64,000 bases of DNA from an uncultured Spirochaetales bacterium (GTDB lineage: Bacteria; Spirochaetota; Spirochaetia; SPDA01; CAZSGZ01), in assembly GCA_964641125.1 (NCBI GenBank), contig CAZXMO010000003.1, positions 29,756 through 93,755 of the forward strand, in the 5' to 3' direction. The notes under the pieces are model-generated. The model searched no databases. It saw only the letters and a program-made list of their open reading frames with translations, and was not told the DNA's origin. Made by a program: the position numbers and the translations under genes. Of this stretch, positions 6,690-56,890 are shown one piece after another. Every line of letters begins with the position of its first letter. Positions within the stretch are counted from its first letter, which is position 1.

Positions 6690-6737
6690 TGACGTTCGCG
6701 GTTTGACAATGACGCCCGGATACGGCACTATATTCGA

Positions 6738-6824: not shown

Positions 6825-6828
6825 ATAT

Positions 6829-17884: not shown

Positions 17885-17928
17885 ATACCTTCGGGGGACG
17901 AGCCCCCGAAGGTTTGTAAAGGGTTTCT

Positions 17929-19014: not shown

Positions 19015-19059
19015 GATACACTCCTTTGAAAATATTCCGGCGGTTTCAACGAAACCGCG

Positions 19060-25297: not shown

Positions 25298-25304
25298 AGT
25301 TGTC

Positions 25305-27409: not shown

Positions 27410-27410
27410 A

Positions 27411-27812
27411 TCATTCCCCCTTCTTCCGTATCGCCTGAGTCGCGCACTCCGGAACGCACGCCGGCTCTCCGCCGCAGAAATCGCACTTCCACGCCTTTTT
27501 GCCGACAAAGGTTATTGCATCGTAAGGACAGGCGTCCATGCAGGCCCTGCATCCGATACACTCCTCTTCATCGATGACGACGGTCCCCCCGTTTTCCCGG
27601 ATCGCGTCGACGGGACACGATTCTATGCAGGGATGACCTTCGCAGTCGTCGAATCGGCACACCCTGAACACAGGATCCCCCGGCCACGCCCGGTCGACGA
27701 AGATTCGGGACTCTTTCATATCCACCCTTTCCGTCTGAACGATGGAACAGGCAATCATGCATCGCCTGCATTCGGTACAGCGCTTCAGATCTATTTCAAA
27801 ACCCGTTAGCAT
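27411..27812 (-). CDS. Poly-[4Fe-4S] ferredoxin-like electron-transfer subunit (AorA-like)
   Basis: 133 aa with CTECRRCMIAC, CEGHPCIESCP, CIGCRACMDACP and CDFCGG…CVPEC cluster motifs. Confidence 0.8.
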   Translation of the reverse strand: MLTGFEIDLKRCTECRRCMIACSIVQTERVDMKESRIFVDRAWPGDPVFRVCRFDDCEGHPCIESCPVDAIRENGGTVVIDEEECIGCRACMDACPYDAITFVGKKAWKCDFCGGEPACVPECATQAIRKKGE

Positions 27813-27827
27813 AATTCTCTTCTCCGA

Positions 27828-30398
27828 TTACAGATATCCGCCGTCTTCGAGGACTCGAAGCGCGGATTCGGCGTCCTCCCCGGCAACCATTACCACGGGA
27901 CCGGTACATCCCATCCCGGCTTCGGCATATATTCCCCGTTTCGACAGGAGTGCCGCCGCACTATCGATTTCGAGGACGTCGATCCCTTCTATTTCCTTCC
28001 CCACCGGTTTTTTAGGCGGTCCGGAGGCCGCTGATTCGGGGACCCGCGGTTCCCGAACCTTGCCGATCACGCTTCCCGCGGCAAGAAACCTTCCATAGGT
28101 TTCGGCGACCACCCCGGGCAAGTTTCCCCGGACCATCCGCGCAAGATAAAGGAGGGCCGCGCCGGTTACCTCCGGGGAGGTCGCCCTGGAGATGATCCCC
28201 ACCAAGGATTCCATGCACACCCCGATACCCGGACCGTATCCGGAACCCTTCGTCTCGATAGTTCCGTCGGTCTCCGAAGCCGCGAGGAGCTTCATGATAA
28301 GGTTCCCCGTCAGGCTGTCGCACACCGCGACGTCCACGGTCCCCGCGAGGACATCATTTCCTCTGAGGAGCTCATCGCCGCGGGCGGAACCCGTGAGGTT
28401 GAGGTCGAAACCGTTCGCCGTTGTTTCTTTGAGCCGTCTTAAAGCCGTCTGGGCTCCTTCCAGATTGATAAGCCCTACCTTCGGCCGAACGATTCCGTAC
28501 GTCCTCGCGACACTGACGCCCAAGACGGTGTTCAGGACCAGTGCCTCCACCCGGCTCGTAGAAACCGTTCCGGTTGTCGTGGCGATGAACAGCGGTTTTC
28601 CCTCCGTCTTCGTGTTCACCATCCCCACCGTGGCCACTCCTACGGGAAAAGGATAATGAAAGGTCAGTGCTCCGTCGATCTTCTTTTCCGCGAGGGCTCC
28701 GGACATTTCCCGGTGGGCTTCTTCCGGGGTCCCCTCCTCGGAACCGAAGAAGACTATCTCGAGGTTCGGATCGTCCTCGGCGGCCGATTCTGCCCCCCGT
28801 ATCAGCTCGTCCGTTCCGGCTTCGCTCCCCGGGAGGGTCAGTCCCAGGGCAACCGGGCCGTCCCCGGTATACCCGGAAAAATCGAGGGGTATGCGGAAAC
28901 TTTCCGCCGTCGGCGCCGCGGAGATTGCCGAAGGTCCGGCATCGGAGGATTCGAAGAGTATCGATACCCCGTCGAAGAGATTGGTCATCCTCCCTAAGAA
29001 GAGACTCCCCTTGCCTATGACCATCGCCCGGGTAACAGTCCCCATCTCGGCGTACCGGAGGAGCCAGCCTAAGGCGGGGACCCCCGACGGAATATGCCCC
29101 TGCGTCGGGGCCCATCCCGAGACCCCGTGTTCATTGATAAAATCGGGTATAGAACTCCGCTCTATTTCTTTCTTCATCACCGCCATGGCGGCTATCATCT
29201 TGAGGTTTGCCTCGGTTACGTTTCCCGCGCCGGCGTTCTCGGTGATCTCCGGGTTCTGGAGCTCCGGAGCGTAGAGGTCCACATCGGAAAGACCGAATCC
29301 GCCGGAGGCAAGGGGGTCCGTCACGAGGTCCTGTATGACCGCCTGAGGGGAAGCGCCCGACCCTATCCTGTGCCTTCCCACCACGTCGGTACGGATGACC
29401 AATCCCCGCCCCTCACGTCTCACGAGGACCGCGAAGCCTGCCATGCAGTCCTCGAGGACCGGGAGTCCCTTCTCGATGTGTTTTTTGGAATTCATCCCCA
29501 GCTTAGCGGTGGTCCCCCCGGCGGTGACGACGACCGATTCGAAGATCCCCGACCGTACCAAACCCGCCGCCTGGAGAATACCGTGGACCGGTCCCGCGCA
29601 GAAGGACCTGGTGTCGCTGCCGGTGGCCCGAGAGAGGCCCGAGAGCTCTCCTACGGCCTTCGCGAAGTTGCCTCCTCCCCGCTGGTTGATGTCTCCGCAG
29701 GCCTCCTCGGAGGTCTCGATGATATAGTCGATACTTTCCGGATCCACCGAGTTTCGGTTCAGCAGATCTCTGACCGTGTAGACCGCGGTCGCCTTGGCGG
29801 CTAAGTTTTCGAGAATCGTGTGGGCATGGAGATTGACGTCGTCGGGATGGGCCGACCGGACGCATCCGACCACCTCACCTTTTGATTCTAGCGGCAGCGC
29901 CCCCTCGGCTATCTCCTTCTCGAGGGAACTCTTCTCGATCCCCTTCCTGTGTTTCGGTGTGATAAGCCCGGATAAGACCGGATCTTTCTCGAGGATCGAG
30001 AAAATCAGCTCCGAGAAATCCTGTTCTAAGGCCACGAGATCGAAGACGTCGGCAACCTTCACGAGACTGTAGAGAAGCTCTTCCGACAGGATCGATCCGA
30101 ACCGACCCCGGCATGCACGGCCCTCCATTTCGAATTCGCCGCCGGGTCCCGCCTTTTCGTACCAGGGGCGCGGAGGAAGCTCTCTCGGGTCGATGTTCCC
30201 GATGTAAGCCTGATTCGGAAGATATCCCGCAACGTCTTCGAAGCTTCTCAGCCGGCCGGCGAAGAGCTGTGCGAACTCGGCACCTCCCTCGGTCCGCTTC
30301 GTTTCGGCGTGAGGGGCGCTCCCGTAGGCAGCCGTGAAAAAGGGCGCGTGAAAGAGGCTGTAGGCGGCCGCGGTCAGGACGGGGAAACTATCAGGCAC
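27828..30398 (-). CDS. Glycine/sarcosine/betaine reductase complex component C, with beta (GrdC-like) and alpha (GrdD-like) subunits fused in one 856-aa polypeptide
   Basis: Residues ~1-483 are thiolase/KAS-like GrdC (FPVLTAAAYSLFHAP… to …GKGSLFLGRMTNLFDGVSILFE). A ~30-aa Ala/Ser/Pro linker occupies ~28857-28949. Residues ~515-856 are PlsX-like GrdD (…ALGLTLPGSE… to …AEAGMGCTGPVVMV…). Confidence 0.75.
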   Translation of the reverse strand: MPDSFPVLTAAAYSLFHAPFFTAAYGSAPHAETKRTEGGAEFAQLFAGRLRSFEDVAGYLPNQAYIGNIDPRELPPRPWYEKAGPGGEFEMEGRACRGRFGSILSEELLYSLVKVADVFDLVALEQDFSELIFSILEKDPVLSGLITPKHRKGIEKSSLEKEIAEGALPLESKGEVVGCVRSAHPDDVNLHAHTILENLAAKATAVYTVRDLLNRNSVDPESIDYIIETSEEACGDINQRGGGNFAKAVGELSGLSRATGSDTRSFCAGPVHGILQAAGLVRSGIFESVVVTAGGTTAKLGMNSKKHIEKGLPVLEDCMAGFAVLVRREGRGLVIRTDVVGRHRIGSGASPQAVIQDLVTDPLASGGFGLSDVDLYAPELQNPEITENAGAGNVTEANLKMIAAMAVMKKEIERSSIPDFINEHGVSGWAPTQGHIPSGVPALGWLLRYAEMGTVTRAMVIGKGSLFLGRMTNLFDGVSILFESSDAGPSAISAAPTAESFRIPLDFSGYTGDGPVALGLTLPGSEAGTDELIRGAESAAEDDPNLEIVFFGSEEGTPEEAHREMSGALAEKKIDGALTFHYPFPVGVATVGMVNTKTEGKPLFIATTTGTVSTSRVEALVLNTVLGVSVARTYGIVRPKVGLINLEGAQTALRRLKETTANGFDLNLTGSARGDELLRGNDVLAGTVDVAVCDSLTGNLIMKLLAASETDGTIETKGSGYGPGIGVCMESLVGIISRATSPEVTGAALLYLARMVRGNLPGVVAETYGRFLAAGSVIGKVREPRVPESAASGPPKKPVGKEIEGIDVLEIDSAAALLSKRGIYAEAGMGCTGPVVMVAGEDAESALRVLEDGGYL

Positions 30399-30711
30399 CT
30401 AAAATCTCCTCGAGCTTGGATTCCACCTCGTCGATTTCGAATTCCTTGGAGAACGAGGCTTCCTTTGTCCCGTCCCGGTAGATAAGGATAGACGGAAGAC
30501 CCATCACCTTTTCCCGGATGGCGAGCCTCCGGTTCCCCTGAATGTTGACCTTAGCGAACTCCGCCTTGTCCTCGTATTTTGCGGCGAGGTTCTCGAAATC
30601 CGGCATCATCTCCACGCATTCCTCGCACCCGTCGCTCCAAAAATCGACCACCACGACTCCGTCCGACTCGAGGACCGCCTCGTCGAAGGTGTCTTTATGT
30701 AGTTCTTTCAT
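30391..30711 (-). CDS. trxA: Thioredoxin with atypical active site G-C-E-E-C
   Basis: 106 aa Trx fold: VVVDFWSDGCEECVEM…, cis-Pro GLPSILIY. Confidence 0.8.
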   Translation of the reverse strand: MKELHKDTFDEAVLESDGVVVVDFWSDGCEECVEMMPDFENLAAKYEDKAEFAKVNIQGNRRLAIREKVMGLPSILIYRDGTKEASFSKEFEIDEVESKLEEILGA

Positions 30712-30765: not shown

Positions 30766-31224
30766 CTAGAGAAATTGACCTCGGATGGTCGAAACTTCCC
30801 GGACGATCTCGTCCACATCCAGGACCATCTCCATCATTCCGATGTTGTCCCCATAGACCGATTCGTCCAAATCGTTTTTAATCTCCGGTTCGAGCACGTG
30901 ATATGCGGGGAGTCCCAACTGGACTCCCGTCAATGGACCGGCATAGGCGGGATCGCCGTTTATAACCGTTTCGGCGATGAGGCCGCTTGCCTCAGGGTCG
31001 GCTCCGCCCAAGAGCACCAGGATATTCTCCTTTCCGTGCTCCTCGGCGAGCGCCTTTACCCGCTTCTGGTTCTCCAGGTCCATTGCTCCGGCCGAAGTTC
31101 AAACAAAGCACTCGGTTGCGGAAAAAATGATCTCGACATTCTTTCCCTCGAGACAGGCTTCGATTGCCCCGCCGGGGATTCCGTCTCGATCTCCTAAGAT
31201 AATTATCTTCTTACCGTCGAGCAT
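30766..31224 (-). CDS. grdA: Glycine/sarcosine/betaine reductase selenoprotein A (GrdA), Sec42 encoded by UGA at 31099-31101
   Basis: The track ORF (30766..31083) is only the part after the Sec codon. Upstream in frame: AGGAGG RBS, ATG 31224, [57 protein letters not shown]…. This matches the conserved GrdA CFVUT(A/S)AGAMDLENQ core. Confidence 0.92.
31063..31101 (-). promoter_or_regulatory. grdA Sec UGA plus candidate SECIS stem-loop
   Basis: Hand fold: CUUCGG/CCGG … CUGG/CC-A-GAAG immediately 3' of the UGA. Not verified computationally. Confidence 0.3.
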
Positions 31225-36097: not shown

Positions 36098-37232
36098 CTA
36101 TTCCTCCTTCCATCAAATACTGCTTGACCTGGTCCACCGACCAGGAGGGATCCATCCCCATCTCCTCTATCGTCCTCCCGATCGAACGGAAGTCCTTGTC
36201 CAGAAGCCCCTCGGCGATGGTTATCACCGCGTCGGTGTACGGGGTGGGAACATCTAAGAGCCTCCCTAAGGACGAAAAGGTCACCAGCCCGTAGGGAACG
36301 TCCTCGGTCAGGTGGCGGGCTTCTAAGCTGTACGGCCCCTCGCAGACCTCGAGGAAGGGAGTATGGATGGCGTCGTAGAGGGGGAGCACGTAATCCTCCC
36401 CTCTAGGGTTCCACTTGACCATCATGATCTCCTCTTCCAAGGGATACTGCTTGAGTCCCAGCTTTTCGCCGATGGCCATCCGTTCCCGGTCGAGCTTCTC
36501 GATTAAGTTGACGATCCCCGGGGTGTTCTCCTTTTTTCCGAAGAGGAAAAAATCCTTCTCCCCCGATTCGATCCGTCCGGCGTTGCAAATCATCGGCGGG
36601 GTATGGGTTATGGCGTTGTAGTCTACCAAGATACTGTCGATGGCGTTCTGTCCGGCCCTCAGGGTATATCCGTGCTCTTCGGGATACAGCTTCAGGGCCG
36701 CCTCCATCACCCGGTCGATGTCCTTTCCGGGAAAACAGGCGATAATCAGGTTCTGCGTCCGGTTCTCGAGACGTACCTGATACCCCCCTTTCTTGGAAGC
36801 CCCGTAGGGAAGGGTATTGCAGTCGGCGAGATAGACCCGTGCTGAAACACCTTCCTCATTAAGGACCCGCGCCCAGGTCAGGGAAGCTCCCCCCTTTCCC
36901 AAATAGAGAACGATCTGCCCTTCTTCGAGGTGCGGCGCCGTCATCCTCGCGTACTCCTCACAGACAAAATAGGGGATGGGATTGACGATGACGTCGGCGC
37001 CCCGGACCGCCTCCGCGATATCGGAGGTAACGAGGGCGACCTTCCCGAACTTGCCGGTAGGCTTGCTGTCGATGTCGAGGATCTCGATCCCTCCCTTCTC
37101 CGCGACCCCCTCCAACTTCTCCGGGTTCCGGGAGAATAAAGCGACTTCATATCCCATGCCGGCAAAATCCGCCGCCGACATGAAACCTCCGCTCCCCGCC
37201 CCGAGGACGGCTATCTTTCGTATCTCTCTCAT
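36090..37232 (-). CDS. NAD(P)-dependent opine (octopine/nopaline) dehydrogenase-family oxidoreductase
   Basis: Rossmann KIAVLGAGSGG, then …ITHTPPMICNAG… and RHLTEDVPYGLV, typical of the opine-DH helical domain. Start chosen at ATG 37232 (AAGGAAGGA RBS). The longer track ORF is an Arg-rich over-extension. Confidence 0.7.
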   Translation of the reverse strand: MREIRKIAVLGAGSGGFMSAADFAGMGYEVALFSRNPEKLEGVAEKGGIEILDIDSKPTGKFGKVALVTSDIAEAVRGADVIVNPIPYFVCEEYARMTAPHLEEGQIVLYLGKGGASLTWARVLNEEGVSARVYLADCNTLPYGASKKGGYQVRLENRTQNLIIACFPGKDIDRVMEAALKLYPEEHGYTLRAGQNAIDSILVDYNAITHTPPMICNAGRIESGEKDFFLFGKKENTPGIVNLIEKLDRERMAIGEKLGLKQYPLEEEIMMVKWNPRGEDYVLPLYDAIHTPFLEVCEGPYSLEARHLTEDVPYGLVTFSSLGRLLDVPTPYTDAVITIAEGLLDKDFRSIGRTIEEMGMDPSWSVDQVKQYLMEGGIDG

Positions 37233-37246
37233 GATGTATCCTTCCT

Positions 37247-39004
37247 TTAGGACCTTTCGGACCTGAGTCCTGCTGTTTTTTCCTCGTCGATCTCGAACCG
37301 TTCGGTGTCCTCGAAGACCACCCCGTAGAGCGATTCGGCCCTCTCGACGGTGATTATTCCGTTTCTGACGTCCCTTCGTACCAATTCCGGGTCCCGGTCG
37401 AAGGGGTTCCCCCACCCGCCTCCGCCCGAGGGGTAGCTCGTATAGGTGTCCCCCTTCCCGAGGCGCACCGTTTCCTTCGCGGCGAGCTCCCGCTCCCTAT
37501 CGGTGCCTTCATTGATGTAGGCGAGATTGCACGATCCGGGAAGCCCTCCGAAGAGGCCGTAGGGGGGATGGATTTTTCCGTCCCCGAACATGACGAGGGT
37601 CGGCTCTTCGTCGTATACCCTGATCCGGTATTTGGCCCCGCACCCGCCGCGATACTCTCCCGCCCCGCAGGAATCGGGGGTAAACTCGTTGAACAGTGTC
37701 AGGTGGGGATAGTCCATCTCGTTGGTCTCGATATTCGGAGCGATAAGCCCTCCCAGATCGATGCCGTCGCCTATGTAATGACGGCCGTCCATCCCCTTCA
37801 TCCCCCCGGCACCGCCGAAGCCGTTGAATCCGAACATGACGTAGAACCCCTTACTCCGCGGATCGATACCGGTAATAGTCGGTCCGTTCCACCTGTTCCA
37901 TCCCGCCGGTACCCGGTCGGGAAGGACCAGGGATAGGGCCTGCCAGCAGGCCTCCAATATGGCACAGGCGGTGTCCAGGGTGCACGAGGCGACCGGCGCC
38001 GGAAACCGGGGATTCACCACAGACCCCTCCGGCGCGGTTATACGGATGGGTCTGTAGGCCCCTTCGTTGTGAGGGATATCCGGAGTGGTGACGGTGGTCA
38101 GAAAAGATACGTAAACGCAGGTGGCGGTATTGGCCATCGGCGAGTTGACGAATCCCGTTACCTGGGGATCGGAGCCTTCGAAATCGACGGAGGCCTCGTC
38201 CCCCTTCACCGTAATGCTCACCCGTATCCGGATGGGATCGTCGGAAAATCCGTCCGAATCGAGAAAACTCTCGCCGATGTAGGTCCCGTCGGCAAGCTTC
38301 TCGATCTCCCCCCGCATCCGGCGTTCAGCGTACTGGTGTATCTCTTCGATGGTATCTCGGGTCTTTCGAACCCCATACTTGCCGATCAGATCGATGATCC
38401 GACGCTCCGCCACCCTGCAGGATGCGACCATGGCCTTCAGGTCGACCCATAGGTCGTCGGGCATCCGGGTGTTCAGGCGGATCATGTTGATCACGTCCAT
38501 GATAGGCTCTTCCTTCGCGTAGATCCGGACCGGGGGAATCCGTATTCCCTCGTGGAAGAGCTCAGTCGCCTGAGGGCAGTAGGACCCCGGCTCCATCCCT
38601 CCGACGTCGCCGTGATGGGCACGATTGATGGCGATAAATTGGAGCTCGCCGTCGTAGAAAACCGGCTTCATCACCGTCACGTCCTGGAGGTGGGTACCCC
38701 CGAGGTAGGGATCGTTCAGGACAAAGACATCTCCCGGGTTGATATCGCCGCCGAAATGGCGGCTCACCGCCTTGACCGCCTCCATGGCCGACGCGGTGTG
38801 GCTGGGGACCCCGTCGATCTGAGCGACGATACGGTTGTCCCAGTCGCACAGGGCGCAGGAGAAATCGTGGACCTCGGCGAAGATCGGAGAGATAGAGGTA
38901 TTCACCATGGTAATCCCCATCTCCTGATTTATGGTCAAGAGGCGGTTGTAGATAACCGAAAGGGTTATCGGATCGTGGGCGCCTTCGAACTCTTTCTTTC
39001 TCAT
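37247..39004 (-). CDS. hyuB: Hydantoinase B / oxoprolinase-family subunit (HyuB-like)
   Basis: 585 aa. DPITLSVIYNRLLTINQEMG…HDFSCAL… is typical of the Hydantoinase_B family. ATGA overlap with hyuA. Confidence 0.8.
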   Translation of the reverse strand: MRKKEFEGAHDPITLSVIYNRLLTINQEMGITMVNTSISPIFAEVHDFSCALCDWDNRIVAQIDGVPSHTASAMEAVKAVSRHFGGDINPGDVFVLNDPYLGGTHLQDVTVMKPVFYDGELQFIAINRAHHGDVGGMEPGSYCPQATELFHEGIRIPPVRIYAKEEPIMDVINMIRLNTRMPDDLWVDLKAMVASCRVAERRIIDLIGKYGVRKTRDTIEEIHQYAERRMRGEIEKLADGTYIGESFLDSDGFSDDPIRIRVSITVKGDEASVDFEGSDPQVTGFVNSPMANTATCVYVSFLTTVTTPDIPHNEGAYRPIRITAPEGSVVNPRFPAPVASCTLDTACAILEACWQALSLVLPDRVPAGWNRWNGPTITGIDPRSKGFYVMFGFNGFGGAGGMKGMDGRHYIGDGIDLGGLIAPNIETNEMDYPHLTLFNEFTPDSCGAGEYRGGCGAKYRIRVYDEEPTLVMFGDGKIHPPYGLFGGLPGSCNLAYINEGTDRERELAAKETVRLGKGDTYTSYPSGGGGWGNPFDRDPELVRRDVRNGIITVERAESLYGVVFEDTERFEIDEEKTAGLRSERS

Positions 39005-41070
39005 TTCGCGGCCTCCATGATGATATTGCCGTACCCGTCGATCCAGGCCTCCCAGCCGGGATGAACGATCACCGTGGTGATCCTCTCTTCGATGACAGCG
39101 GGTCCCGAAATCCGGTTCCCCGCCTGGAGCTTCGTCCTGTCGAAAACCGGGGTGGCTACGAAATCGCTCTTTCCCGCGAAGTAGACATCGCGGCGCCCCT
39201 TCTCCGCCGCCGAAGCATCTTCGCTCCCCTTCTCCTCCTCGGTTATTACCGCCTTGTCCACGGCCCCCACCGCTGTGATGCGGAGGTTTATGATCTCCAG
39301 AGGAGTTTCGGGAGTGGAGTAGGTATAGAGCTTTTCGTGAGCATCATGAAAGGTCCCGGCGATCTCCTCGAGGTGGCGGTCGGCGAGTTCGGTTCCGGAG
39401 GGGATTTCCACGGTCACCTCGTGGTGCTGTCCGGCATACCTGATGTCGGCGAACCGGAGGAGACGTGCCCGTCTCTTTTCGACCCCTTCTTGAAGGAGCT
39501 CTTCGAGGGCCTGTGACTCCGTTGTCCGTATCACTTCGTTCAGATCGCCCAGATCGAGCCCGGGAATAGTCCCGAAATACGATTTGACGCTGTCCAAACG
39601 TATGTCCGATTCGAGCATCCCCAAGGCGCAGAATACCGACGCCGCCTTCGGAACCAGCACCCGGGTAGAGCCCACTTCTTCGGCAATTCTGCAGCTGTGA
39701 ATCGAGCAGGCCCCGCCGGCACTGACAAGGGTATATTCCCTCGGATCGTGCCCCCGCTGAACGCTCACGACCTTGGCGGCGTCGGCCATGTTCTGATTGA
39801 TGATCTCGAAGATACCCGCCGCGGCCTCGGTTGACGACATTCCCAAGGGTTCGGCGATCTTTTCCCGCACCGATGCCTCCGCCTTCTCCGCGTTCACCTT
39901 CATCTCTCCGCCTAAGAAAAAGTCCTTGTTCAGGTACCCCAAAAGGAGATTGGCGTCGGTCACCGTGGGCTCGGTGCCCCCCGAATCATAGCAGACGGGC
40001 CCGGGATCGGAGCCCGCCGAGGCGGGACCTACCCGGAGCATTCCCCCCTTGTCGATCCAGGCAACCGAACCGCCGCCGGCGCCGACGGTATTGATATCGA
40101 TCATGGGCTTAGCCACACGATAGCCCGCGATCTCCCCCTCGGTGCTCAAGGTTACCCGGCCGTTGTTGATAAGGGTCACATCGAAAGAGGTCCCCCCCAT
40201 GTCCATGAGAATCAAATTCCCGCGGTCCAAGAGCTCGGCGAAGTATACCGCCCCCACGGCGCCTGCGGCGGGACCCGAGAGGAGGGTCGCCGAGGCGTGC
40301 CGCACGGCGGTTTCCGCGGTCATGACTCCGCCGTTAGACGCGGTCACGTAGAAGGCCCTTTGCAGTCCGTCCGATTTGAGGTTCTTTTCCAAATTGGAAA
40401 GATACACCGTCAGCCGCGGACCCACGTAGGCATTCGCCGCTGTCGTGGAGCTCCGCTCGTACTCCCGTATCTGCGGAAGGACCTCCGAGGAAATCGAAAC
40501 GAAGGCGTCGGGCATCTCTTCGAGGAGGATCTCACGGATCCGCAGTTCGTGTTCGGGGTTGAGGAATGAGAACAGGGTAACCACGGCAACGGCCCCTACC
40601 CCTTCCGCTTTGAACTTTCCGCAGGCCCTGCGGACCGATTCTTCGTCGAGGGGAGTCACCGCGGTTCCCGTGGAATCTATCCGCTCCGTCACTCCGAGGC
40701 GTAGATACCGGGGGACCAGCGGATCGGGGGCCTTCAGAAAGAGGTCCCAGATATTTTCCTTGTGAGCCCGGCGCATTTCGAGGGAATCCCTGAAGCCTTC
40801 TGTACAGACAAGACCGGTCACCGCGCCGGTGCCGGTCAGGAGCGTGTTCGTCGCCACCGTGGTGCCGTGGGCGAAGAAATCGAGCTTAGCGAGGAAGGCC
40901 GACAAATCGTCGCCGAAGGAGGCGGCGGCCTTCGCAATCACGTTGTATACGCCTACGGCCGGGTTCTCCGGCGTCGATAACTCCTTGAAGGTATGGACCT
41001 TCCCCGTTTCATCTATGACGACGCAGTCGGTGAAGGTCCCGCCGGTGTCGACACCCATACGCAGCTTCAT
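39001..41070 (-). CDS. hyuA: Hydantoinase A / oxoprolinase-family ATP-dependent subunit (HyuA-like)
   Basis: MKLRMGVDTGGTFTDCVV (actin-fold ATPase), …MDMGGTSFDV…. 689 aa from ATG 41070, which has a GGAGGGG RBS. Confidence 0.8.
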   Translation of the reverse strand: MKLRMGVDTGGTFTDCVVIDETGKVHTFKELSTPENPAVGVYNVIAKAAASFGDDLSAFLAKLDFFAHGTTVATNTLLTGTGAVTGLVCTEGFRDSLEMRRAHKENIWDLFLKAPDPLVPRYLRLGVTERIDSTGTAVTPLDEESVRRACGKFKAEGVGAVAVVTLFSFLNPEHELRIREILLEEMPDAFVSISSEVLPQIREYERSSTTAANAYVGPRLTVYLSNLEKNLKSDGLQRAFYVTASNGGVMTAETAVRHASATLLSGPAAGAVGAVYFAELLDRGNLILMDMGGTSFDVTLINNGRVTLSTEGEIAGYRVAKPMIDINTVGAGGGSVAWIDKGGMLRVGPASAGSDPGPVCYDSGGTEPTVTDANLLLGYLNKDFFLGGEMKVNAEKAEASVREKIAEPLGMSSTEAAAGIFEIINQNMADAAKVVSVQRGHDPREYTLVSAGGACSIHSCRIAEEVGSTRVLVPKAASVFCALGMLESDIRLDSVKSYFGTIPGLDLGDLNEVIRTTESQALEELLQEGVEKRRARLLRFADIRYAGQHHEVTVEIPSGTELADRHLEEIAGTFHDAHEKLYTYSTPETPLEIINLRITAVGAVDKAVITEEEKGSEDASAAEKGRRDVYFAGKSDFVATPVFDRTKLQAGNRISGPAVIEERITTVIVHPGWEAWIDGYGNIIMEAAK

Positions 41071-41107
41071 GTACCCCTCCGTTGCTCTATCCTTCGCATA
41101 AATACGC

Positions 41108-41836
41108 TCAAAAAAGGTCTTCCTGCAGGACCCTGATGTGCTCCTGCATCTCCTTCCGGGCAAGGTCTCCGTTTCCTTCCCAGATAGCCCTAAATATACA
41201 TGTGTGTTCTTTATGATAATTCTCGAGGTTTCCCTCTTTGAGGATGCTCTTCATCTTCATACCCTTCCAGTGGGTTTCCTTCATCATGAAATTGACCCCG
41301 GAGAAGACCATATACAGGACGTTATTGTGGGCGAACCGGCCGATGTCGAGATGAAACAGCCGGTCCTCCTCCATATACCCTTCGATTATGTCCTGTAAGG
41401 TGGCGGTGCCGTTCAGGACCTGAAAGCTCAAGCTGTTCAGAGCCTCGAGCCTTACCCGCAAAGCCTCTTTCTCCTCGGCGGTGGCCCGTTCCGCGGCAAG
41501 GGCGGCCATGTTCGGCTCGATCTCCAGCCGCGCCTCGAATATCTCGTAGGGATCGTGGTCCCGTAAAAGAGAGCTCAAGAGCTCGCCGTCGATCGATCCG
41601 CTCGAGCCGTCGGCACGGATAAAGTTGCCCTGCCCGCTCCGGCATTCGATAATGCCGAGAATCTCCAACGCGCTCAAGGCCTCCCGGATACTCGCCCGGG
41701 AAGTCCCGAACTGCACCGCTAAAGCCCTTTCCGCGGGCAGCTTGTCTCCGATCTTGAGTTTCCCGGCGATAATTTGATCGCGGATCTGCTTCGCGATCTG
41801 CATATAGTACTTTTGAGGCTGTACGTGCTTGAACAT
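41108..41836 (-). CDS. GntR/FadR-family transcriptional regulator
   Basis: Winged HTH (LPAERALAVQFGTSRASIREALSALE) plus a FadR-type FCD C-domain. Start preferred at ATG 41836 (GAAGAGGGA RBS). The upstream in-frame codons contain a promoter and an operator. Confidence 0.8.
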   Translation of the reverse strand: MFKHVQPQKYYMQIAKQIRDQIIAGKLKIGDKLPAERALAVQFGTSRASIREALSALEILGIIECRSGQGNFIRADGSSGSIDGELLSSLLRDHDPYEIFEARLEIEPNMAALAAERATAEEKEALRVRLEALNSLSFQVLNGTATLQDIIEGYMEEDRLFHLDIGRFAHNNVLYMVFSGVNFMMKETHWKGMKMKSILKEGNLENYHKEHTCIFRAIWEGNGDLARKEMQEHIRVLQEDLF

Positions 41837-51973: not shown

Positions 51974-53710
51974 TTAACTCAAAACCCCGTCCAGGTAGGC
52001 CCGGATCGTGTCGAGTCGCTGCCGGACCTCTGAAACTCCGGCGTCGAGGTCCTTTCCCTTCCGTGATCTTGCCGAAGCGTAGAACTTGATCTTCGGCTCG
52101 GTTCCCGAAGGGCGCATGGAAATAATCGATTCATCCCGGGTAATGAATTGCAAAACGTTCGACCGGGGCAGATCGATATCCTCTACCCGGCCGTCGGTTT
52201 TATATAGAGCCTTTCCTTCCAGATAGTCTTTGACGGTGGTTACCGGATCGTTCCCTATTTTTTCAGGGGTTTCCGCCCGGAAGGAACGCATGATTTCCTT
52301 GATCTTTTTGCTCCCCTCTTCCCCTTCGAACTTACGGGAGATAAGGATTTCCTCGAAGTAGCCGTGCCGCTTCCACAGCTCCCGCAGGTGATCCATGACG
52401 GTACGCCCCTTCGCTCGGTTGTACAGGGCCATCTCCGCAACCATAGCCGCCGCCCCGACCGCATCCTTGTCCCTGACTTCCGTCCCTACCAGGTAGCCGT
52501 AACTCTCCTCTCCGCCGAAGACATAGCTCCTCGGGGTAGTTTCGAACTCACGGATCTTTCCGGCTATGTACTTGAAGCCGGTCAAAACGTCTTCTACCTC
52601 GGCGCCGTAGGATTCGGCGATGAGCCTCTGCAGCTCGGTGGTGACGATTGTCTTGACGAGGACCGGATGTTCGGGAAGCTTCCCTTTCTCCTCGAGTTGA
52701 GAAAAGATGTAATCACACAGGAGGGCCCCGATCCGGTTACCGCTTAAAAGGGTATACTCACCGCCGTCGGGAACGGCAATACCCAAGCGGTCGCCGTCGG
52801 GATCGGTAGCCATAACCAACTCGGCGTTCTTCTTCTTTGCCAATTCGATGGCCATCTCCAAGGCCTCCGGCTCCTCGGGATTGGGAAACTCCACTGTCGG
52901 GAACTCGCCGTCAGGTTCCCTCTGCTCGGGCACCGTGGTTACCGAGAGTCCCAGCCTTCCTAAGGCCTGTTCCACCGCTTCGGTCCCGGTCCCGTGAAGG
53001 GGTGTATAGACGACGACCGCCTCCGTTCCGTATTGCTCGAGGATTTCCGGATTGAGGGAGTGGCTCTGGATCATCTCGATGTAGGGCTCGTCGATCTCTT
53101 CGTCGATAATCTCGAGGAGCCCCTTCTCCTTCGCTTCGCCGGTTTCGAGAAAATCGATCTCGCCGCTGACCTTTCGTACCTCTTCGATTATCCGGGTATC
53201 GTGGGGACTTATTATCTGGGCACCGTCGGACCAGTACACCTTGTAGCCGTTGTACTCCGGCGGATTATGGCTCGCGGTTATAACGATCCCCGCGGTTGCG
53301 GAGAGCTTCCGAACCGCGAAACTGAGCTCCGGTGTTGGGCGAAGGGACGAAAAGAGATACACCTTGATTCCGGCCGCGTTCAAGACCCCGGCCGCCTCCG
53401 ACGCGAATACATCGGAATAGCGCCTTGAATCGTAGGCAATGACCGCGGATCCTTCACCGGTCTGAGAACGGATGTATTCGGCCAAGCCCTTCGTCGCCTT
53501 CCGGATAATGTAGGTATTCATCCGGTTATATCCGCCTCCGATTTTGCCCCGTATACCTCCGGTCCCGAAGTCGAGCTCGGTATAGAACCGGTCGGAGAGC
53601 TCATCCCATGCTTCTTCGTTCAAGAGCTCCCTCACCTCACTCCTGAAAGTCTCGTTTTTCTCGAGTTCGATGTACTCGTGTGCTTTTTTTCGGATCGAAT
53701 CGTCTTTCAT
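51974..53710 (-). CDS. Phosphoglucomutase/phosphomannomutase-family phospho-sugar mutase
   Basis: Active-site GIVITASHNPPEYNGYK, metal loop ATDPDGDR, sugar loop GGEESYG. Confidence 0.88.
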   Translation of the reverse strand: MKDDSIRKKAHEYIELEKNETFRSEVRELLNEEAWDELSDRFYTELDFGTGGIRGKIGGGYNRMNTYIIRKATKGLAEYIRSQTGEGSAVIAYDSRRYSDVFASEAAGVLNAAGIKVYLFSSLRPTPELSFAVRKLSATAGIVITASHNPPEYNGYKVYWSDGAQIISPHDTRIIEEVRKVSGEIDFLETGEAKEKGLLEIIDEEIDEPYIEMIQSHSLNPEILEQYGTEAVVVYTPLHGTGTEAVEQALGRLGLSVTTVPEQREPDGEFPTVEFPNPEEPEALEMAIELAKKKNAELVMATDPDGDRLGIAVPDGGEYTLLSGNRIGALLCDYIFSQLEEKGKLPEHPVLVKTIVTTELQRLIAESYGAEVEDVLTGFKYIAGKIREFETTPRSYVFGGEESYGYLVGTEVRDKDAVGAAAMVAEMALYNRAKGRTVMDHLRELWKRHGYFEEILISRKFEGEEGSKKIKEIMRSFRAETPEKIGNDPVTTVKDYLEGKALYKTDGRVEDIDLPRSNVLQFITRDESIISMRPSGTEPKIKFYASARSRKGKDLDAGVSEVRQRLDTIRAYLDGVLS

Positions 53711-53718
53711 ACTTTCCC

Positions 53719-54381
53719 CTATTTTAGAATCATTCGGACCGGTATTTCCCGAGGTTCTTCGATAATGAGCTCCGCCCCCTCCCGAAGGAGCTCCTCGGGC
53801 GGCCGGAATCCCCAGGACACCCCTACGGGAATCATTCCCGCCGCTCGGGCGGTGTGCATGTCTACTGTCGAATCTCCGATGAACAAGACTTTTTTGGGAG
53901 GAACTCCCATCGATTCCGCGATCTCCAGGGCCGATCGGGGATCCGGCTTCTTGGGTGCGCCGTCGACGGCCCCCCGGACGACCGCGAACCGTTTTCCAGG
54001 AAGAATTCTCTCGACAACCCGGCGTGCCACCGGATCGGCCTTGTTCGAGAGGACCGACATAGGAATCCCTCCTTCCTCGAGCTCGTCGAGCATCGAAAGG
54101 ATGCCCGGATAGGGCCGCGTCTTGATAACCGGTTCCCGGGTGTATCGGCGAAGGAGCTCGGCGGCAAGGGCGTTCACCGTTTCATCACGGCGGCGGTCCT
54201 CGGGAAGGGCCCGCACAATCAGATTCGTCAAACCCCAGCCGACCATATCCCGGTACGCCTCCTCGGCATGCCCGGGAAAGCCGTTGTCCGCAAGAACGGC
54301 GTTGGTTACGTCGGTAAGGTCCGCCAAGGTGTCCGCCAGAGTTCCGTCCAGATCGAAGATTATTGCTCGAGGTCCGTTCAT
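53719..54381 (-). CDS. HAD-superfamily phosphatase (phosphoglycolate phosphatase-like)
   Basis: IIFDLDGTLADT motif I, SNK motif, GDSTVD motif IV. Start chosen at ATG 54381. Confidence 0.8.
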   Translation of the reverse strand: MNGPRAIIFDLDGTLADTLADLTDVTNAVLADNGFPGHAEEAYRDMVGWGLTNLIVRALPEDRRRDETVNALAAELLRRYTREPVIKTRPYPGILSMLDELEEGGIPMSVLSNKADPVARRVVERILPGKRFAVVRGAVDGAPKKPDPRSALEIAESMGVPPKKVLFIGDSTVDMHTARAAGMIPVGVSWGFRPPEELLREGAELIIEEPREIPVRMILK

Positions 54382-54476
54382 TTTTCCCACATTAAAGAAA
54401 ATAGTTACACACCATGAAAGAGTCAACAGGACAAGCCGAGGTGACGCGGCCGGTAAAAACCGATAGAGTAATCCCT

Positions 54477-55577
54477 ATGAAACTGCGTGTCCTTTTCTTA
54501 GAACCCTTCTACGGGGGGTCTCACAGAGCCTTTGCCGACGGACTTGTTTCTTTTTCACGTCACCACATCGATCTGGTGACCCTCCCGGCCCGGTTTTGGA
54601 AGTGGCGGATGCGCGGCGCCGCGCTTCATTTCGTCCGCACCGTCCCGGCCCCCGAGCTCTACGACCTGATAATCGTCTCCGATCTCATGTCGCTGTCGGA
54701 CCTCAAGAGCTTGTGGGGAAGCCGGTGTCCGGCGAGTATCGTTTATTTCCACGAGAGCCAGCTCTCCTATCCCCTGCCCCCGGGAGAGCGGATGGATTAC
54801 CATTTCGGATTCACCGACATCACTTCCTGCCTGACAGCTGATAAAATCGTATTCAACTCCCGTTTCCACTATTCGCGCTTCTTCGAGGAGCTGCCCAAAT
54901 TCATCAGGAAGATGCCGGAGTTCAAACCGACGTGGGTACCCGAAGAGATAGAGCCCAAGAGTGTGATTCTCTACCCGGGGTGCGATTTCGGTCTTTCCGG
55001 CGGCACCGAGCCTTCAGGCCACACCGGCGGTCCCCTTATCGTATGGAACCACCGGTGGGAGTTCGACAAGAATCCGGGGCTTTTCTTCGATGTTCTCTAC
55101 CGAGCCGCCGAGGCGGGATTAGACTTCCAATTGGCTCTCCTGGGAGAGAATTTCCAGACGGTGCCGAAGCCTTTTTTAGAGGCGAAGGACCGGCTCGGGG
55201 ACCGCCTACTTCACTACGGCTATGTGGAAGACCGGAAGGCTTATATGCAAATCCTCGAAGAAGCCGACATCGTTATAAGTACTTCCATCCAGGAGAACTT
55301 CGGCTATTCCGTAGTCGAAGCGATACGGGCGGGGTGCTATCCCCTCCTCCCCGAACGGCTCTCCTATCCGGAGATACTACCCGAAGAATATCATGACCGC
55401 TGCCTCTATGCCGGCGAAGCGGAACTCCTAGAAAAGCTCTTCGCCCTGCTCGGAGATGAAAAAGTCCCGAACCTCCGGGAGCTCTCGAGCTCTATGGACC
55501 GCTTCGATTGGAAGACCATGGCCCCCCTCTACGACGAGCTCTTCGAAGGCACCGCGGCGGAGGGTTCGAATGGGTAA
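54477..55577 (+). CDS. DUF3524 + GT4 glycosyltransferase, GTDC1/QTMAN-like (putative tRNA-queuosine glycosyltransferase homologue)
   Basis: Collinear with my recollection of human GTDC1: LEPFYGGSH, LPARFWKWRMRG, VYFHESQLSYP, IVFNS, IVWNHRWEFDKNP, LLGENF, ISTSIQENFGYSVVEA, GCYPLLP, YPEILPEEY. Start taken at ATG 54477. Confidence 0.7.
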   Translation: MKLRVLFLEPFYGGSHRAFADGLVSFSRHHIDLVTLPARFWKWRMRGAALHFVRTVPAPELYDLIIVSDLMSLSDLKSLWGSRCPASIVYFHESQLSYPLPPGERMDYHFGFTDITSCLTADKIVFNSRFHYSRFFEELPKFIRKMPEFKPTWVPEEIEPKSVILYPGCDFGLSGGTEPSGHTGGPLIVWNHRWEFDKNPGLFFDVLYRAAEAGLDFQLALLGENFQTVPKPFLEAKDRLGDRLLHYGYVEDRKAYMQILEEADIVISTSIQENFGYSVVEAIRAGCYPLLPERLSYPEILPEEYHDRCLYAGEAELLEKLFALLGDEKVPNLRELSSSMDRFDWKTMAPLYDELFEGTAAEGSNG

Positions 55578-56385
55578 GACCCCCAAGGGAGCCGAGGGAT
55601 TCGAGCGGTTCTACCGGGAGATGTACGGGGTGCGATGGCCCGCCATGAAAACGGCCCTCCTCGAGGAACCGAAGCGGATCCCCTACTCCGAGGGCCTTCT
55701 CAAGCCCTACTTTCTCGATTACGGGTCCTACCTCGCCGCCCGGGCGGTGGAACCGGAACAGGGTGATTCGATTCTCGATATGTGCGCGGCCCCCGGGGGA
55801 AAGAGCCTGATCCTCGCCGCGGCACTCGGGGGAAAGGGTAATCTTACCAGCAACGATCGATCGGCGGCCCGGAGAAGGCGGCTCATAAACGTTCTCGACG
55901 AGCACCTGCCGGCGGAATCTCGGCGAACGGTGAGAGTAACAGGCCACGACGCGGCGCGGTGGTGTCTCTATGAACAGGATGCCTACGACAAGGTTCTCCT
56001 CGACGCTCCCTGCTCTTCGGAACGTCATCTTCTTCATTCTCCCAAGCACCTTGCCGGATGGTCCCCCGCTAGAACCCGACACCTTGCCCAACAGGCCTAC
56101 GCCTTCCTGGTTTCGGCGCTCAGAACCGCTAAACCCGGCGGTATCCTGGTATACAGCACCTGTACAATATCGGTACGGGAGAACGATGAGGTACTCGCCA
56201 AACTTTTTGCAAAATATCCCGATGCGGCGAAAATTGTACCTGTGTCGATCGAGGAGGGAAGCTCGACAGCTTACGGTCGGTTGATTCTTCCCGATGCGGA
56301 TGGGGGTATGGGACCTATGTATATAGCATGTCTCAGGAAGCGCCCAGCGGGCGGGTCCGACGAACCGGAGAGAGCTGAAAATTGA
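55570..56385 (+). CDS. RsmB/NOP2/NSUN-family SAM-dependent RNA (cytosine-C5) methyltransferase, compact form
   Basis: DMCAAPGGKS (SAM motif I), LLDAPCSSE (motif IV Cys), YSTCTIS (motif VI Cys). ATG 55570 overlaps the upstream stop by 8 nt. Confidence 0.8.
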   Translation: MGKTPKGAEGFERFYREMYGVRWPAMKTALLEEPKRIPYSEGLLKPYFLDYGSYLAARAVEPEQGDSILDMCAAPGGKSLILAAALGGKGNLTSNDRSAARRRRLINVLDEHLPAESRRTVRVTGHDAARWCLYEQDAYDKVLLDAPCSSERHLLHSPKHLAGWSPARTRHLAQQAYAFLVSALRTAKPGGILVYSTCTISVRENDEVLAKLFAKYPDAAKIVPVSIEEGSSTAYGRLILPDADGGMGPMYIACLRKRPAGGSDEPERAEN

Positions 56386-56890
56386 CTCCCGTCTTGACGC
56401 TCGTGGCGGTGTTGATCCAGCCGGGGGAGCCGATCAGAAGGTCCTGCTGAAGATAGAAGAACCACGCCATAAAATCGTGGACCCTCAAGCGGAATCCCCC
56501 TCTCAAGGAAGGGCCCATGAAGAATCTCAAGCCCGCTTCGTTGTAGAGAGGGTCAGGCTCCGGATTGAGGACAAAAACCGGGTTGATCCCTACCCCCACG
56601 AAGAATATCGGGTTGGAGTTGCCGAAGAAAAAATCTATCCCTCCGTAGACGGGCAAGTAGAATCGGGGCCTCTCCACCGGTCCCCGAACCGGCCATAGAG
56701 CAAAGTCGAAACCGAAATTCAGTTCCATTCCACGGGCAAGGACAATGTGGAACGCCGCGTGTGTCGCGAGGTAGATTTCGGCGTAATTGAATGTAGAAAA
56801 GCCGAGACCTACGGAAATCGAAGAGCCCATTGCCGGAACGGCCGCGACGACGAGGATTATAATGAAAACCCCGAGGACCGCCCGTTTCAT
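56333..56890 (-). CDS. Small secreted, possibly outer-membrane beta-barrel-like hypothetical protein
   Basis: Signal peptide MKRAVLGVFIIILVVAAVPAMG, then alternating aromatic/Gly-rich segments. ATG 56890 overlaps the glyA stop (ATGA). The longer track ORF is an over-extension. Confidence 0.5.
   Translation of the reverse strand: MKRAVLGVFIIILVVAAVPAMGSSISVGLGFSTFNYAEIYLATHAAFHIVLARGMELNFGFDFALWPVRGPVERPRFYLPVYGGIDFFFGNSNPIFFVGVGINPVFVLNPEPDPLYNEAGLRFFMGPSLRGGFRLRVHDFMAWFFYLQQDLLIGSPGWINTATSVKTGVNFQLSPVRRTRPLGAS

What the first reader, a model, noticed from the sequence alone, without database searches (positions are those of the whole stretch)
54477..56385. Bacterial homologue of vertebrate GTDC1/QTMAN (queuosine mannosyltransferase) translationally coupled to an NSUN-type m5C RNA methyltransferase
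The 366-aa protein is collinear with my recollection of human GTDC1 across nearly all conserved blocks: FYGGSH, YFHE-QL-YP, FNS, W-HRWE-DK-P, LGE-F, IST…E-FG, GCYPL-P and YPEI-P. GTDC1 has been reported as the enzyme that mannosylates queuosine in tRNA-Asp. Glycosylated queuosine is regarded as an animal feature.

Its stop overlaps the start of a compact RsmB/NSUN-family cytosine-C5 methyltransferase by 8 nt, implying co-expression of two RNA-modifying activities. In eukaryotes, Q in tRNA-Asp stimulates m5C38 formation, so a bacterial Q-glycosylation/m5C pair would be an intriguing parallel. That link is purely inferential.
Basis: partly seen in the sequence, partly recalled or inferred. Interest (0 to 1): 0.65.

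Follow-up and report, generated by a model that had tools for sequence, protein, structure and literature searches.

The report
Bacterial QTMAN homologue with m5C methyltransferase
A spirochaete from a microbial mat carries a clear bacterial relative of the animal enzyme that adds mannose to queuosine in tRNA, followed by a small RNA cytosine methyltransferase. The relationship is real and already recorded in databases, its function in bacteria is untested, and the link between the two genes looks local rather than general.

Summary
ORF A (54477-55577, 366 aa) matches Pfam QTMAN_N over its full length (E 2e-60) and carries a GT1 domain. It aligns collinearly with vertebrate tRNA-queuosine mannosyltransferase (E 2e-64, 37-39% identity). 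Human K296 and the EX7E motif are conserved; only the vertebrate linker insert is missing. ORF B (55570-56385, 271 aa) overlaps A by 8 nt. It is a single-domain RsmB/F-type m5C methyltransferase with both catalytic cysteines.

The homology is not new. Pfam renamed DUF3524 to QTMAN_N, and NCBI already names the 91%-identical MAG protein accordingly. The family is large: at least 547 GTDB species and about 1,070 50%-identity clusters, mostly Desulfobacterota and Spirochaetia. I found no paper on a bacterial member.

The proposed Q-glycosylation/m5C coupling is weak. ORF B is closest to NSUN4 and RsmF, which are rRNA enzymes, not to tRNA m5C enzymes or DNMT2. Only 6 of 80 loci have the methyltransferase directly downstream, all from one spirochaete group. 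The methyltransferase keeps the same PGM-HAD/UvrD synteny without the glycosyltransferase. One fused GT-MTase ORF exists.

Most likely ORF A is a stand-alone Q34-tRNA hexosyltransferase, inferred from homology only, co-transcribed with an independent RNA methyltransferase.

The parts
54477..55577 (+). ORF A: a 366-aa cytosolic GT-B (GT4-type) glycosyltransferase and bacterial QTMAN/GTDC1 homologue. Alternative starts are ATG 54414 (387 aa) and GTG 54441 (378 aa).
   Evidence: - ORF list.
- Pfam QTMAN_N plus Glycos_transf_1.
- BLASTP against macaque QTMAN: E 2e-64.
- Start position inferred from the homologue alignment.
- Public gene calls of 387 and 378 aa.
54486..54980 (+). N-terminal QTMAN_N domain (residues 4-168), the presumed acceptor-binding half. 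It contains FYGGSH (54507-54524), RFWKWRMRG (54591-54617) and YFHESQLSYP (54744-54773).
   Evidence: - Pfam PF12038: E 2.1e-60, model positions 1-167 of 168.
- Motif coordinates.
- Columns invariant with vertebrates: F11, G13, G14, S15, H16, W41, W43, R44, R46, Y90-E93, Q95, Y98, P99.
55029..55451 (+). C-terminal nucleotide-sugar-binding GT1 domain (residues 185-325). It contains WNHRWEFDKNP (55044-55076), K198 (55068-55070), which matches human K296, and the EX7E motif ENFGYSVVE (55293-55319).
   Evidence: - Pfam PF00534 and PF13692.
- Mapping of K198 and EX7E onto the human sequence.
- K296A abolishes manQ in human cells (bioRxiv 10.64898/2026.06.28.735034, read).
- AlphaFold model: pLDDT 80, pTM 0.82. 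Foldseek top hits are PimA, BshA, MshA and other GT4 GT-B enzymes.
55559..55577 (+). Translational-coupling junction. It holds the Shine-Dalgarno GGAGGG (55559-55564), the ORF B start ATG at 55570, and the ORF A stop TAA at 55575-55577, giving an 8-nt overlap.
   Evidence: - Sequence read directly.
- The same overlap occurs in the 91%-identical locus L001. Spacing is tight in L016, L022, L039 and L061 (under 40 nt between the aligned segments); in L054 the aligned segments lie about 200 nt apart because the glycosyltransferase match stops early.
55570..56385 (+). ORF B: a 271-aa single-domain RsmB/NOP/NSUN-type RNA cytosine-C5 methyltransferase of the compact NSUN4-like kind. Motifs: SAM motif DMCAAPGGKS (55777-55806), motif IV DAPCS (56002-56016), motif VI YSTCT (56152-56166) and C-terminal GPMY (56311-56322).
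   Evidence: - Pfam PF01189: E 4e-31, the only domain found.
- All NCBIfam matches fall below their curated cut-offs.
- Best PDB match is NSUN4, E 1.4e-34, over residues 34-257.
- Motif coordinates.
- Homologues are 250-300-aa spirochaete proteins.
51974..54381 (-). Divergent syntenic neighbours (context only): a phosphoglucomutase/phosphomannomutase-family mutase (51974-53710) and a HAD hydrolase (53719-54381).
   Evidence: - Pfam assignments.
- PGM, sometimes with HAD, lies next to the glycosyltransferase in L001, L003, L014, L024 and L061.
- PGM also lies next to the methyltransferase without any glycosyltransferase in L086 and L093.

Best explanation
ORF A is a bacterial orthologue-grade member of the QTMAN (GTDC1) family. 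It is a soluble GT-B/GT4 glycosyltransferase of the retaining class.
- Its C-terminal domain binds a nucleotide-sugar. By analogy this is GDP-mannose, but the sugar is not determinable from sequence.
- Its QTMAN_N domain presents the cyclopentenediol of queuosine-34 of a GUN-anticodon tRNA, tRNA-Asp by analogy. The product would be a hexosyl-queuosine.

ORF B is a separate, compact NSUN4/RsmF-like RNA m5C methyltransferase. Its most probable substrate is small-subunit rRNA near the decoding centre.

The two genes are co-transcribed and translationally coupled in this spirochaete lineage. The glycosyltransferase gene sits in front of a methyltransferase gene that is resident at this locus, so the pairing does not require that they act on the same RNA.

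Shown:
- family membership;
- the intact donor site;
- the GT-B fold;
- the overlap;
- the catalytic cysteines of ORF B;
- the distribution of the pairing.

Inferred:
- the acceptor (Q-tRNA);
- the sugar;
- the target of ORF B.
For: Membership and active site of ORF A
- QTMAN_N matches over the full model at E 2e-60.
- BLASTP against macaque QTMAN gives E 2e-64 with 136 identities. The alignment is collinear over both domains and lacks only the vertebrate linker insert of about 95 aa.
- Identity to six vertebrate QTMAN sequences is 37-39%, with 72 columns invariant across bacteria and vertebrates. Many of these lie in the acceptor-side N-domain.
- Human K296, which is required for manQ formation (bioRxiv 10.64898/2026.06.28.735034), equals K198 here. 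EX7E is conserved.
- The model has a GT-B fold, and its nearest structures are GT4 enzymes such as PimA, BshA and MshA.
- Pfam found only the two glycosyltransferase domains in ORF A, and the AlphaFold model is a compact two-domain GT-B fold. No signal-peptide or membrane-segment prediction was run.

Family properties
- Bacterial members keep 54-60% identity between Spirochaetia and Desulfobacterota. This fits a conserved macromolecular substrate.
- No partner gene is conserved across lineages. This is usual for stand-alone tRNA-modification enzymes.

ORF B
- NSUN4 is the best solved relative, at E 1e-34. The match includes the N-terminal F..Y..YG..WP helix and the C-terminal GPMY motif. RsmF follows at 1e-23 to 1e-24.
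- JGI labels several homologues as NSUN4.
- The methyltransferase sits in the same PGM-HAD <-> MTase-UvrD synteny without a glycosyltransferase in L093 and L086.
Against: - No bacterial member of the family has been characterised in the literature I could search.
- Glycosylated Q is described there only for animals.
- Nothing in the genomic context points to queuosine. The window has no tgt, queA or queG. No preQ1 riboswitch was found in the window or in the 11 related loci scanned. No GUN tRNA gene is in the window or in the 60 related loci scanned.
- Whether this organism makes Q could not be checked.
- GT4 acceptor specificity can shift. Several structural neighbours glycosylate small molecules.
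- The tight overlap, the persistence of the pair down to about 46-58% identity, and one fused ORF argue that the two genes may be more than accidental neighbours.
Confidence: 0.55

Rival explanations
1. ORF A belongs to the QTMAN family by descent, but in bacteria it glycosylates a different acceptor. Candidates are a small molecule such as free queuine, a queuosine precursor or another diol-bearing metabolite, another RNA nucleoside, or a protein or lipid. In this reading, Q-tRNA specificity arose only in the eukaryotic branch.
For: - Foldseek neighbours include small-molecule GT4 enzymes: BshA, MshA, tetrahydrobiopterin glucosyltransferase and SenB.
- No Q-related context was found in the window or in the related loci examined.
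- In one Desulfobacterales clade the gene is followed by a second GT4 glycosyltransferase and a class-I SAM methyltransferase. That arrangement looks more like a glycoconjugate pathway.
- JGI's generic label is 'glycosyltransferase involved in cell wall biosynthesis'.
Against: - The acceptor-side N-domain is the best-conserved part shared with vertebrate QTMAN, at E 2e-60 with many invariant residues. A change of acceptor class would not be expected to leave this intact.
- The JGI label is a generic COG name.
- ORF A shows no sign of envelope association: Pfam finds only the two glycosyltransferase domains and the model is a compact two-domain fold.
- The GT4/methyltransferase context is limited to one narrow clade.
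Confidence: 0.27
2. ORF A and ORF B are a functional pair that modify the same RNA or the same decoding site. Examples are hexosyl-Q34 with an m5C in the same tRNA, or Q34 sugar with m5C in 16S helix 44 next to the wobble base. Co-expression would then be selected.
For: - The 8-nt overlap has a Shine-Dalgarno motif inside ORF A.
- The GT-MTase order is kept in six species-level spirochaete loci at only 49-58% protein identity.
- An in-frame fusion exists: glycosyltransferase (to about residue 320) joined to the full methyltransferase on L090, with UvrD downstream.
Against: - Adjacency is absent from about 60 Desulfobacterota loci and from 11 of the 19 spirochaete glycosyltransferase loci.
- Five methyltransferase-centred loci lack the glycosyltransferase. 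Two of them have identical flanking synteny.
- ORF B groups with rRNA enzymes.
- The eukaryotic Q-to-m5C38 circuit uses DNMT2, a different family.
- The fusion is a single 3.85-kb metagenomic contig and has lost the C-terminal ~46 residues of the glycosyltransferase.
Confidence: 0.15

Closest known systems
Vertebrate QTMAN (GTDC1), tRNA-queuosine alpha-mannosyltransferase
   Same: - Same two-domain architecture: QTMAN_N plus GT1.
- Collinear alignment at 37-39% identity, E 2e-64.
- The donor-site Lys (K296/K198) and EX7E are conserved.
- All signature blocks are shared.
   Different: - ORF A lacks the vertebrate inter-domain insert of about 95 aa.
- The host is a bacterium that would make Q de novo or salvage it.
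- Activity, sugar and tRNA target are untested.
- The QTMAN reaction (GDP-mannose onto the allylic hydroxyl of Q34 in tRNA-Asp) is known only for the animal enzyme.
NSUN4, the mitochondrial 12S rRNA m5C methyltransferase
   Same: - Best solved-structure match of ORF B, at E 1.4e-34.
- Both are compact catalytic-domain-only enzymes without PUA or NusB-like RNA-binding domains.
- They share an N-terminal helix motif and the C-terminal GPMY motif.
   Different: - NSUN4 has an insertion of about 70 aa after the N-terminal helix.
- NSUN4 works with MTERF4 (my own knowledge). No such partner is evident here.
- The target of ORF B is unknown.
Bacterial RsmF (YebU) and RsmB, 16S rRNA m5C1407 and m5C967 methyltransferases
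   Same: Same Pfam catalytic domain and the same catalytic cysteines in motifs IV and VI.
   Different: - ORF B lacks their extra RNA-binding domains.
- It scores far below every NCBIfam equivalog cut-off, for example 110 bits against 588 for RsmF.
GluQRS (YadB), glutamyl-queuosine synthetase of tRNA-Asp in Proteobacteria
   Same: It is the known bacterial example of a further modification of Q34 on the cyclopentenediol of tRNA-Asp (my own knowledge). ORF A would be a functional analogue.
   Different: It is an unrelated fold and chemistry: an aminoacyl-tRNA-synthetase paralogue that transfers glutamate. No sequence relationship was tested or is expected.
GT4 retaining GT-B enzymes (PimA, BshA, MshA)
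   Same: Nearest solved folds, with TM about 0.6-0.65. They share the C-terminal EX7E donor-site architecture.
   Different: Only 11-17% identity. Their N-terminal acceptor domains are unrelated to QTMAN_N at the sequence level (one search found only one weak C-domain hit).

Membership tests
QTMAN/GTDC1 family (Pfam PF12038 + GT4) | Full-length QTMAN_N (formerly DUF3524) N-terminal domain above the Pfam gathering score | tested here: met
   203.8 bits against a cut-off of 25, covering model positions 1-167 of 168.
QTMAN/GTDC1 family (Pfam PF12038 + GT4) | C-terminal GT1-type nucleotide-sugar domain with the EX7E motif and a GT-B fold | tested here: met
   PF00534 at 35.7 bits against a cut-off of 26.4. 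E273-E281 aligns with human E371-E379. The model has a GT-B fold and GT4 neighbours.
QTMAN/GTDC1 family (Pfam PF12038 + GT4) | The lysine equivalent to human K296, which is required for manQ formation | tested here: met
   K198 aligns to K296 and is invariant in all 17 aligned bacterial and vertebrate sequences. The K296A result comes from bioRxiv 10.64898/2026.06.28.735034.
QTMAN/GTDC1 family (Pfam PF12038 + GT4) | Significant collinear similarity to an experimentally characterised (vertebrate) member | tested here: met
   BLASTP E 2e-64 against macaque QTMAN and 2e-55 against alligator QTMAN. Identity is 37-39%.
QTMAN/GTDC1 family (Pfam PF12038 + GT4) | Enzymatic activity: transfer of mannose from GDP-mannose to Q34 of tRNA-Asp | not testable with these tools
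   This needs LC-MS of tRNA nucleosides or an in vitro assay.
QTMAN/GTDC1 family (Pfam PF12038 + GT4) | The host possesses queuosine in tRNA (tgt, queA, and queG or queH present) | not tested
   None of these genes lies in the 64-kb window.
NSUN/RsmB-F RNA m5C methyltransferases | RsmB/F catalytic domain with the SAM motif and the two catalytic cysteines (motif IV PC, motif VI TC) | tested here: met
   PF01189 at 108.6 bits against a cut-off of 27. The motifs DMCAAPGGKS, DAPCS and YSTCT are present.
NSUN4-like compact subfamily | Catalytic domain only, with no PUA or NusB-like RNA-binding domain, and closest to NSUN4 | tested here: met
   271 aa with a single Pfam domain. NSUN4 scores E 1.4e-34, against RsmF at 1e-23 to 1e-24, NSUN6 at 2e-18 and NSUN2 at 3e-7.
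RsmB / RsmF / tRNA-C49 methyltransferase equivalogs (NCBIfam) | Score above the curated equivalog cut-off | tested here: not met
   Best scores are 111.7 against 319 (RsmB), 110.2 against 588 (RsmF) and 96.7 against 550 (tRNA C49). ORF B is therefore not assignable to any curated target-specific family.
DNMT2-type tRNA m5C38 methyltransferase (the eukaryotic partner of Q34) | A DNA-methylase-fold C5-methyltransferase domain | tested here: not met
   Pfam finds only Methyltr_RsmB-F in ORF B.

The most novel reading that the evidence does not exclude
Glycosylated queuosine is not an animal invention. Hundreds of bacterial species, mainly Desulfobacterota and Spirochaetia, would make a hexosyl-queuosine in tRNA with a QTMAN orthologue. 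The animal enzyme and the bacterial family would share a single origin, possibly through horizontal transfer. In one spirochaete clade this activity might additionally be coupled, by operon and even by gene fusion, to an NSUN4-like m5C methyltransferase acting at or next to the decoding site.
Probability: 0.45. Interest if true: 0.7.

Novelty: new member of a known kind. Interest (0 to 1): 0.42.

Why it matters
The papers I could read describe manQ and galQ only in animals. If the bacterial QTMAN homologues do glycosylate Q-tRNA, three things would follow.
- A new bacterial tRNA wobble modification would be defined.
- The evolutionary origin of the animal enzyme would become traceable.
- Simple prokaryotic systems, namely cultivable Desulfobacterota, would become available to study what the sugar on Q34 does for decoding and tRNA stability.

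The prediction is cheap to test by nucleoside LC-MS.

The gene pair is of lesser weight. It is a lineage-restricted operon, and its methyltransferase is most like rRNA enzymes.

Tried and rejected
- **Exact look-up of the 366-aa product:** nothing on record, because gene callers used upstream starts. It was resolved through ORF B.
- **Conserved-neighbour analysis over 80 species-level loci:** no partner is shared across lineages and no Q-pathway gene family appeared among the recurrent neighbours.
- **preQ1 or other riboswitch upstream of the glycosyltransferase:** none in the window, and none in 11 related loci.
- **tRNA genes next to the glycosyltransferase:** none with a GUN anticodon in the window or in 60 loci.
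- **Phage or plasmid origin:** no homologue in viral contigs or PLSDB plasmids.
- **Defence-system reading, prompted by a sub-threshold GT4-conflict hit:** no PADLOC hit for ORF A. ORF B gave only a generic methyltransferase hit to mad2, much weaker than its RsmB-F match.
- **Solved QTMAN structure:** none in the PDB by sequence or by fold.
- **N-terminal extensions in P0416 and P0423 as possible informative fusions:** no domain was found; they are probably mis-called starts.
- **Taxon names for divergent representatives:** the cluster look-up returned none.
- **Literature on bacterial QTMAN, GTDC1 or DUF3524:** nothing found. The original Cell 2023 paper is not in the held library.
Full report
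**Observation**

The window region 54414-56385 holds two same-strand ORFs.

ORF A runs to a TAA stop at 55575-55577.
- Its possible starts are ATG 54414, GTG 54441 and ATG 54477.
- Public gene calls use the first two, giving 387 and 378 aa.
- The alignment with homologues places the conserved N-terminus (MKLRVLFLEPFYGGSH) at 54477, giving 366 aa.

ORF B starts at ATG 55570.
- It overlaps ORF A by 8 nt (ATGGGTAA).
- A GGAGGG motif lies 5 nt upstream, at 55559-55564.
- The 271-aa product agrees with the public gene call and with homologue lengths.
- The longer ORF from 55456 is not supported.

The window comes from a 110.7-kb contig of a JGI metagenome. The same genes occur on an ENA microbial-mat contig. 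The closest genome-collection locus, at 91% identity, is a Spirochaetia MAG.

**What ORF A is**

Domain and sequence evidence:
- Pfam gives QTMAN_N (PF12038, the former DUF3524) at E 2.1e-60 over the whole model, plus Glycos_transf_1. No NCBIfam model passes its cut-off.
- To compare with the characterised enzyme, I retrieved real vertebrate sequences from the protein collection. These include macaque and other proteins named tRNA-queuosine alpha-mannosyltransferase.
- BLASTP of ORF A against macaque QTMAN gives E 2e-64 with 136 identities. The alignment is collinear over both domains. Against alligator QTMAN it gives E 2e-55.
- In a 17-sequence alignment, ORF A is 37-39% identical to six vertebrate sequences. 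Seventy-two columns are invariant across bacteria and vertebrates.
- The only large difference is a vertebrate-specific linker insert of about 95 aa.

Active-site and fold evidence:
- Human K296, whose K296A substitution abolishes manQ (bioRxiv 10.64898/2026.06.28.735034), corresponds to K198.
- The GT4 EX7E motif is E273-E281.
- An AlphaFold2 model (pLDDT 80, pTM 0.82) has a GT-B fold.
- Its nearest solved structures are GT4 enzymes such as PimA, BshA and MshA.
- No QTMAN structure exists in the PDB.

**How common and how known**

Size and spread of the family:
- The family is large in bacteria. More than 4,500 90%-identity clusters matched.
- About 1,070 50%-identity clusters match at E <= 1e-30.
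The best 80 are Desulfobacterota and Spirochaetia, with Nitrospinaceae and others.

What is already recorded:
- NCBI already names the 91%-identical protein 'tRNA-queuosine alpha-mannosyltransferase domain-containing protein'. Older records say DUF3524. JGI uses a generic cell-wall glycosyltransferase label.
- I found no paper dealing with a bacterial member.
- The papers I could read describe manQ and galQ as features of vertebrates or animals.
- So the homology is catalogued, but the bacterial function is untested.

**Context**

- Across 80 species-level loci, no neighbour is conserved between lineages.
- There is no tgt, queA or queG in the window.
- No riboswitch was found upstream of the gene in the window or in 11 related loci.
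- No GUN tRNA gene is in the window or nearby in 60 loci.
- The family is absent from viral contigs and plasmids.
- It gives no defence-system hit.
- The inference that the acceptor is Q-tRNA therefore rests on homology alone. The strongest part of that evidence is the conservation of the acceptor-side N-domain.

**What ORF B is**

- It is a single-domain RsmB/F-type m5C methyltransferase.
- It has the SAM motif and both catalytic cysteines, DAPCS and YSTCT.
- It is below every curated NCBIfam equivalog cut-off.

| Solved relative | E-value |
|---|---|
| NSUN4 (mitochondrial rRNA enzyme) | 1.4e-34 |
| RsmF | 1e-23 to 1e-24 |
| NSUN6 | 2e-18 |
| Trm4-like | 1e-16 |
| NSUN2 | 3e-7 |

- The NSUN4 match includes an N-terminal helix motif and the C-terminal GPMY motif.
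- Its close homologues are 250-300-aa spirochaete proteins. JGI labels some of them NSUN4.
- An rRNA target is the most likely, but this is not shown.

**Is the pair functional?**

Evidence for a functional link:
- The overlap and the Shine-Dalgarno motif inside ORF A suggest coupled translation.
- The same gene order with tight spacing occurs in L001, L016, L022, L039, L054 and L061. These six spirochaete species share only 49-58% protein identity. In L003 the methyltransferase lies 5 kb away.
- One in-frame fusion exists. It joins the glycosyltransferase, up to about residue 320, to the complete methyltransferase on L090. The missing glycosyltransferase tail is not present in any other frame.

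Evidence against a functional link:
- None of about 60 Desulfobacterota loci, and 11 of 19 spirochaete glycosyltransferase loci, have the methyltransferase within 6 kb.
- Five methyltransferase-centred loci in other spirochaetes have no glycosyltransferase.
- L093 and L086 show the same PGM(-HAD) <-> MTase(-UvrD) synteny as the window, without the glycosyltransferase. The methyltransferase therefore looks like the resident gene and the glycosyltransferase like the variable one.
- The eukaryotic Q34-to-m5C38 circuit uses DNMT2, a different family.

I therefore rate functional coupling as possible but not the best reading.

**Verdict**

- ORF A is a new member of a known and already named family.
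- The most likely mechanism is hexosylation of Q34 in a GUN tRNA by a GT4-type glycosyltransferase of the retaining class. I put confidence in the combined statement at about 0.55.
- ORF B is an NSUN4/RsmF-like RNA methyltransferase of unknown target. It is co-transcribed with ORF A in one spirochaete clade.
- The interesting open point is that bacteria may make glycosylated queuosine. This is a family-level hypothesis that is easy to test in cultured Desulfobacterota.

Noticed in passing
L090:17-1570 (JGI 3300041024, contig Ga0451564_439029): A single ORF fuses a QTMAN-like glycosyltransferase, which lacks its last ~46 residues, in frame to a complete NSUN4-like methyltransferase. A UvrD-type helicase follows. 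The ORF is cut by the contig end and is seen on one 3.85-kb contig only.
   Followed up: partly
L093:1354-6832 and L086:3095-5798: Other spirochaetes keep the PGM-HAD <-> MTase-UvrD arrangement found around the window genes, but with no glycosyltransferase between HAD/PGM and the methyltransferase. This suggests insertion or loss of the QTMAN-like gene at a stable locus.
   Followed up: partly
L012:7064-8359 and L017:6176-6928 (one Desulfobacterales clade, 9 loci each): In this clade the QTMAN-like gene is followed by an overlapping second GT4 glycosyltransferase (Glyco_transf_4 + Glycos_transf_1). A class-I SAM methyltransferase (Methyltransf_11) lies about 1.2 kb downstream on the same strand. 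This is a different local operon from the spirochaete one.
   Followed up: partly
window 30766-31224 (-): A grdA gene (glycine/sarcosine/betaine reductase component A) has an in-frame TGA at 31099-31101 within the motif CFV-U. It is a selenocysteine codon, and public gene calls split the gene in two there. Nearby are GrdB-like and Gly_reductase genes, thioredoxin and thioredoxin-reductase-like genes.
   Followed up: partly
window 5802-9965 (+): A complete selenocysteine-insertion cluster: selD-like (5802-6689), tRNA-Sec (6737-6825, Rfam 69.8 bits), selA (6829-8190) and selB (8190-9965).
   Followed up: partly
window 56333-56890 (-): A 185-aa ORF with an N-terminal hydrophobic signal-like segment and no Pfam match. 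It converges on ORF B and overlaps its 3' end by 53 nt. It is conserved in the 91%-identical locus L001.
   Followed up: no
window ~17900-30400 (-): A block of genes for xanthine-dehydrogenase-type molybdoenzymes, amidohydrolase, a dihydroorotate-dehydrogenase-like Fe-S protein, aldehyde:ferredoxin oxidoreductase and a BMP-family ABC transporter. Together with the hydantoinase A/B genes at about 37200-41200, it suggests anaerobic purine or pyrimidine degradation.
   Followed up: no
P0416 (545 aa) and P0423 (519 aa): These QTMAN-like proteins have N-terminal extensions of 130-180 aa that are low in complexity and match no Pfam domain. They are probably over-extended gene calls in GC-rich genomes rather than real fusions.
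   Followed up: partly
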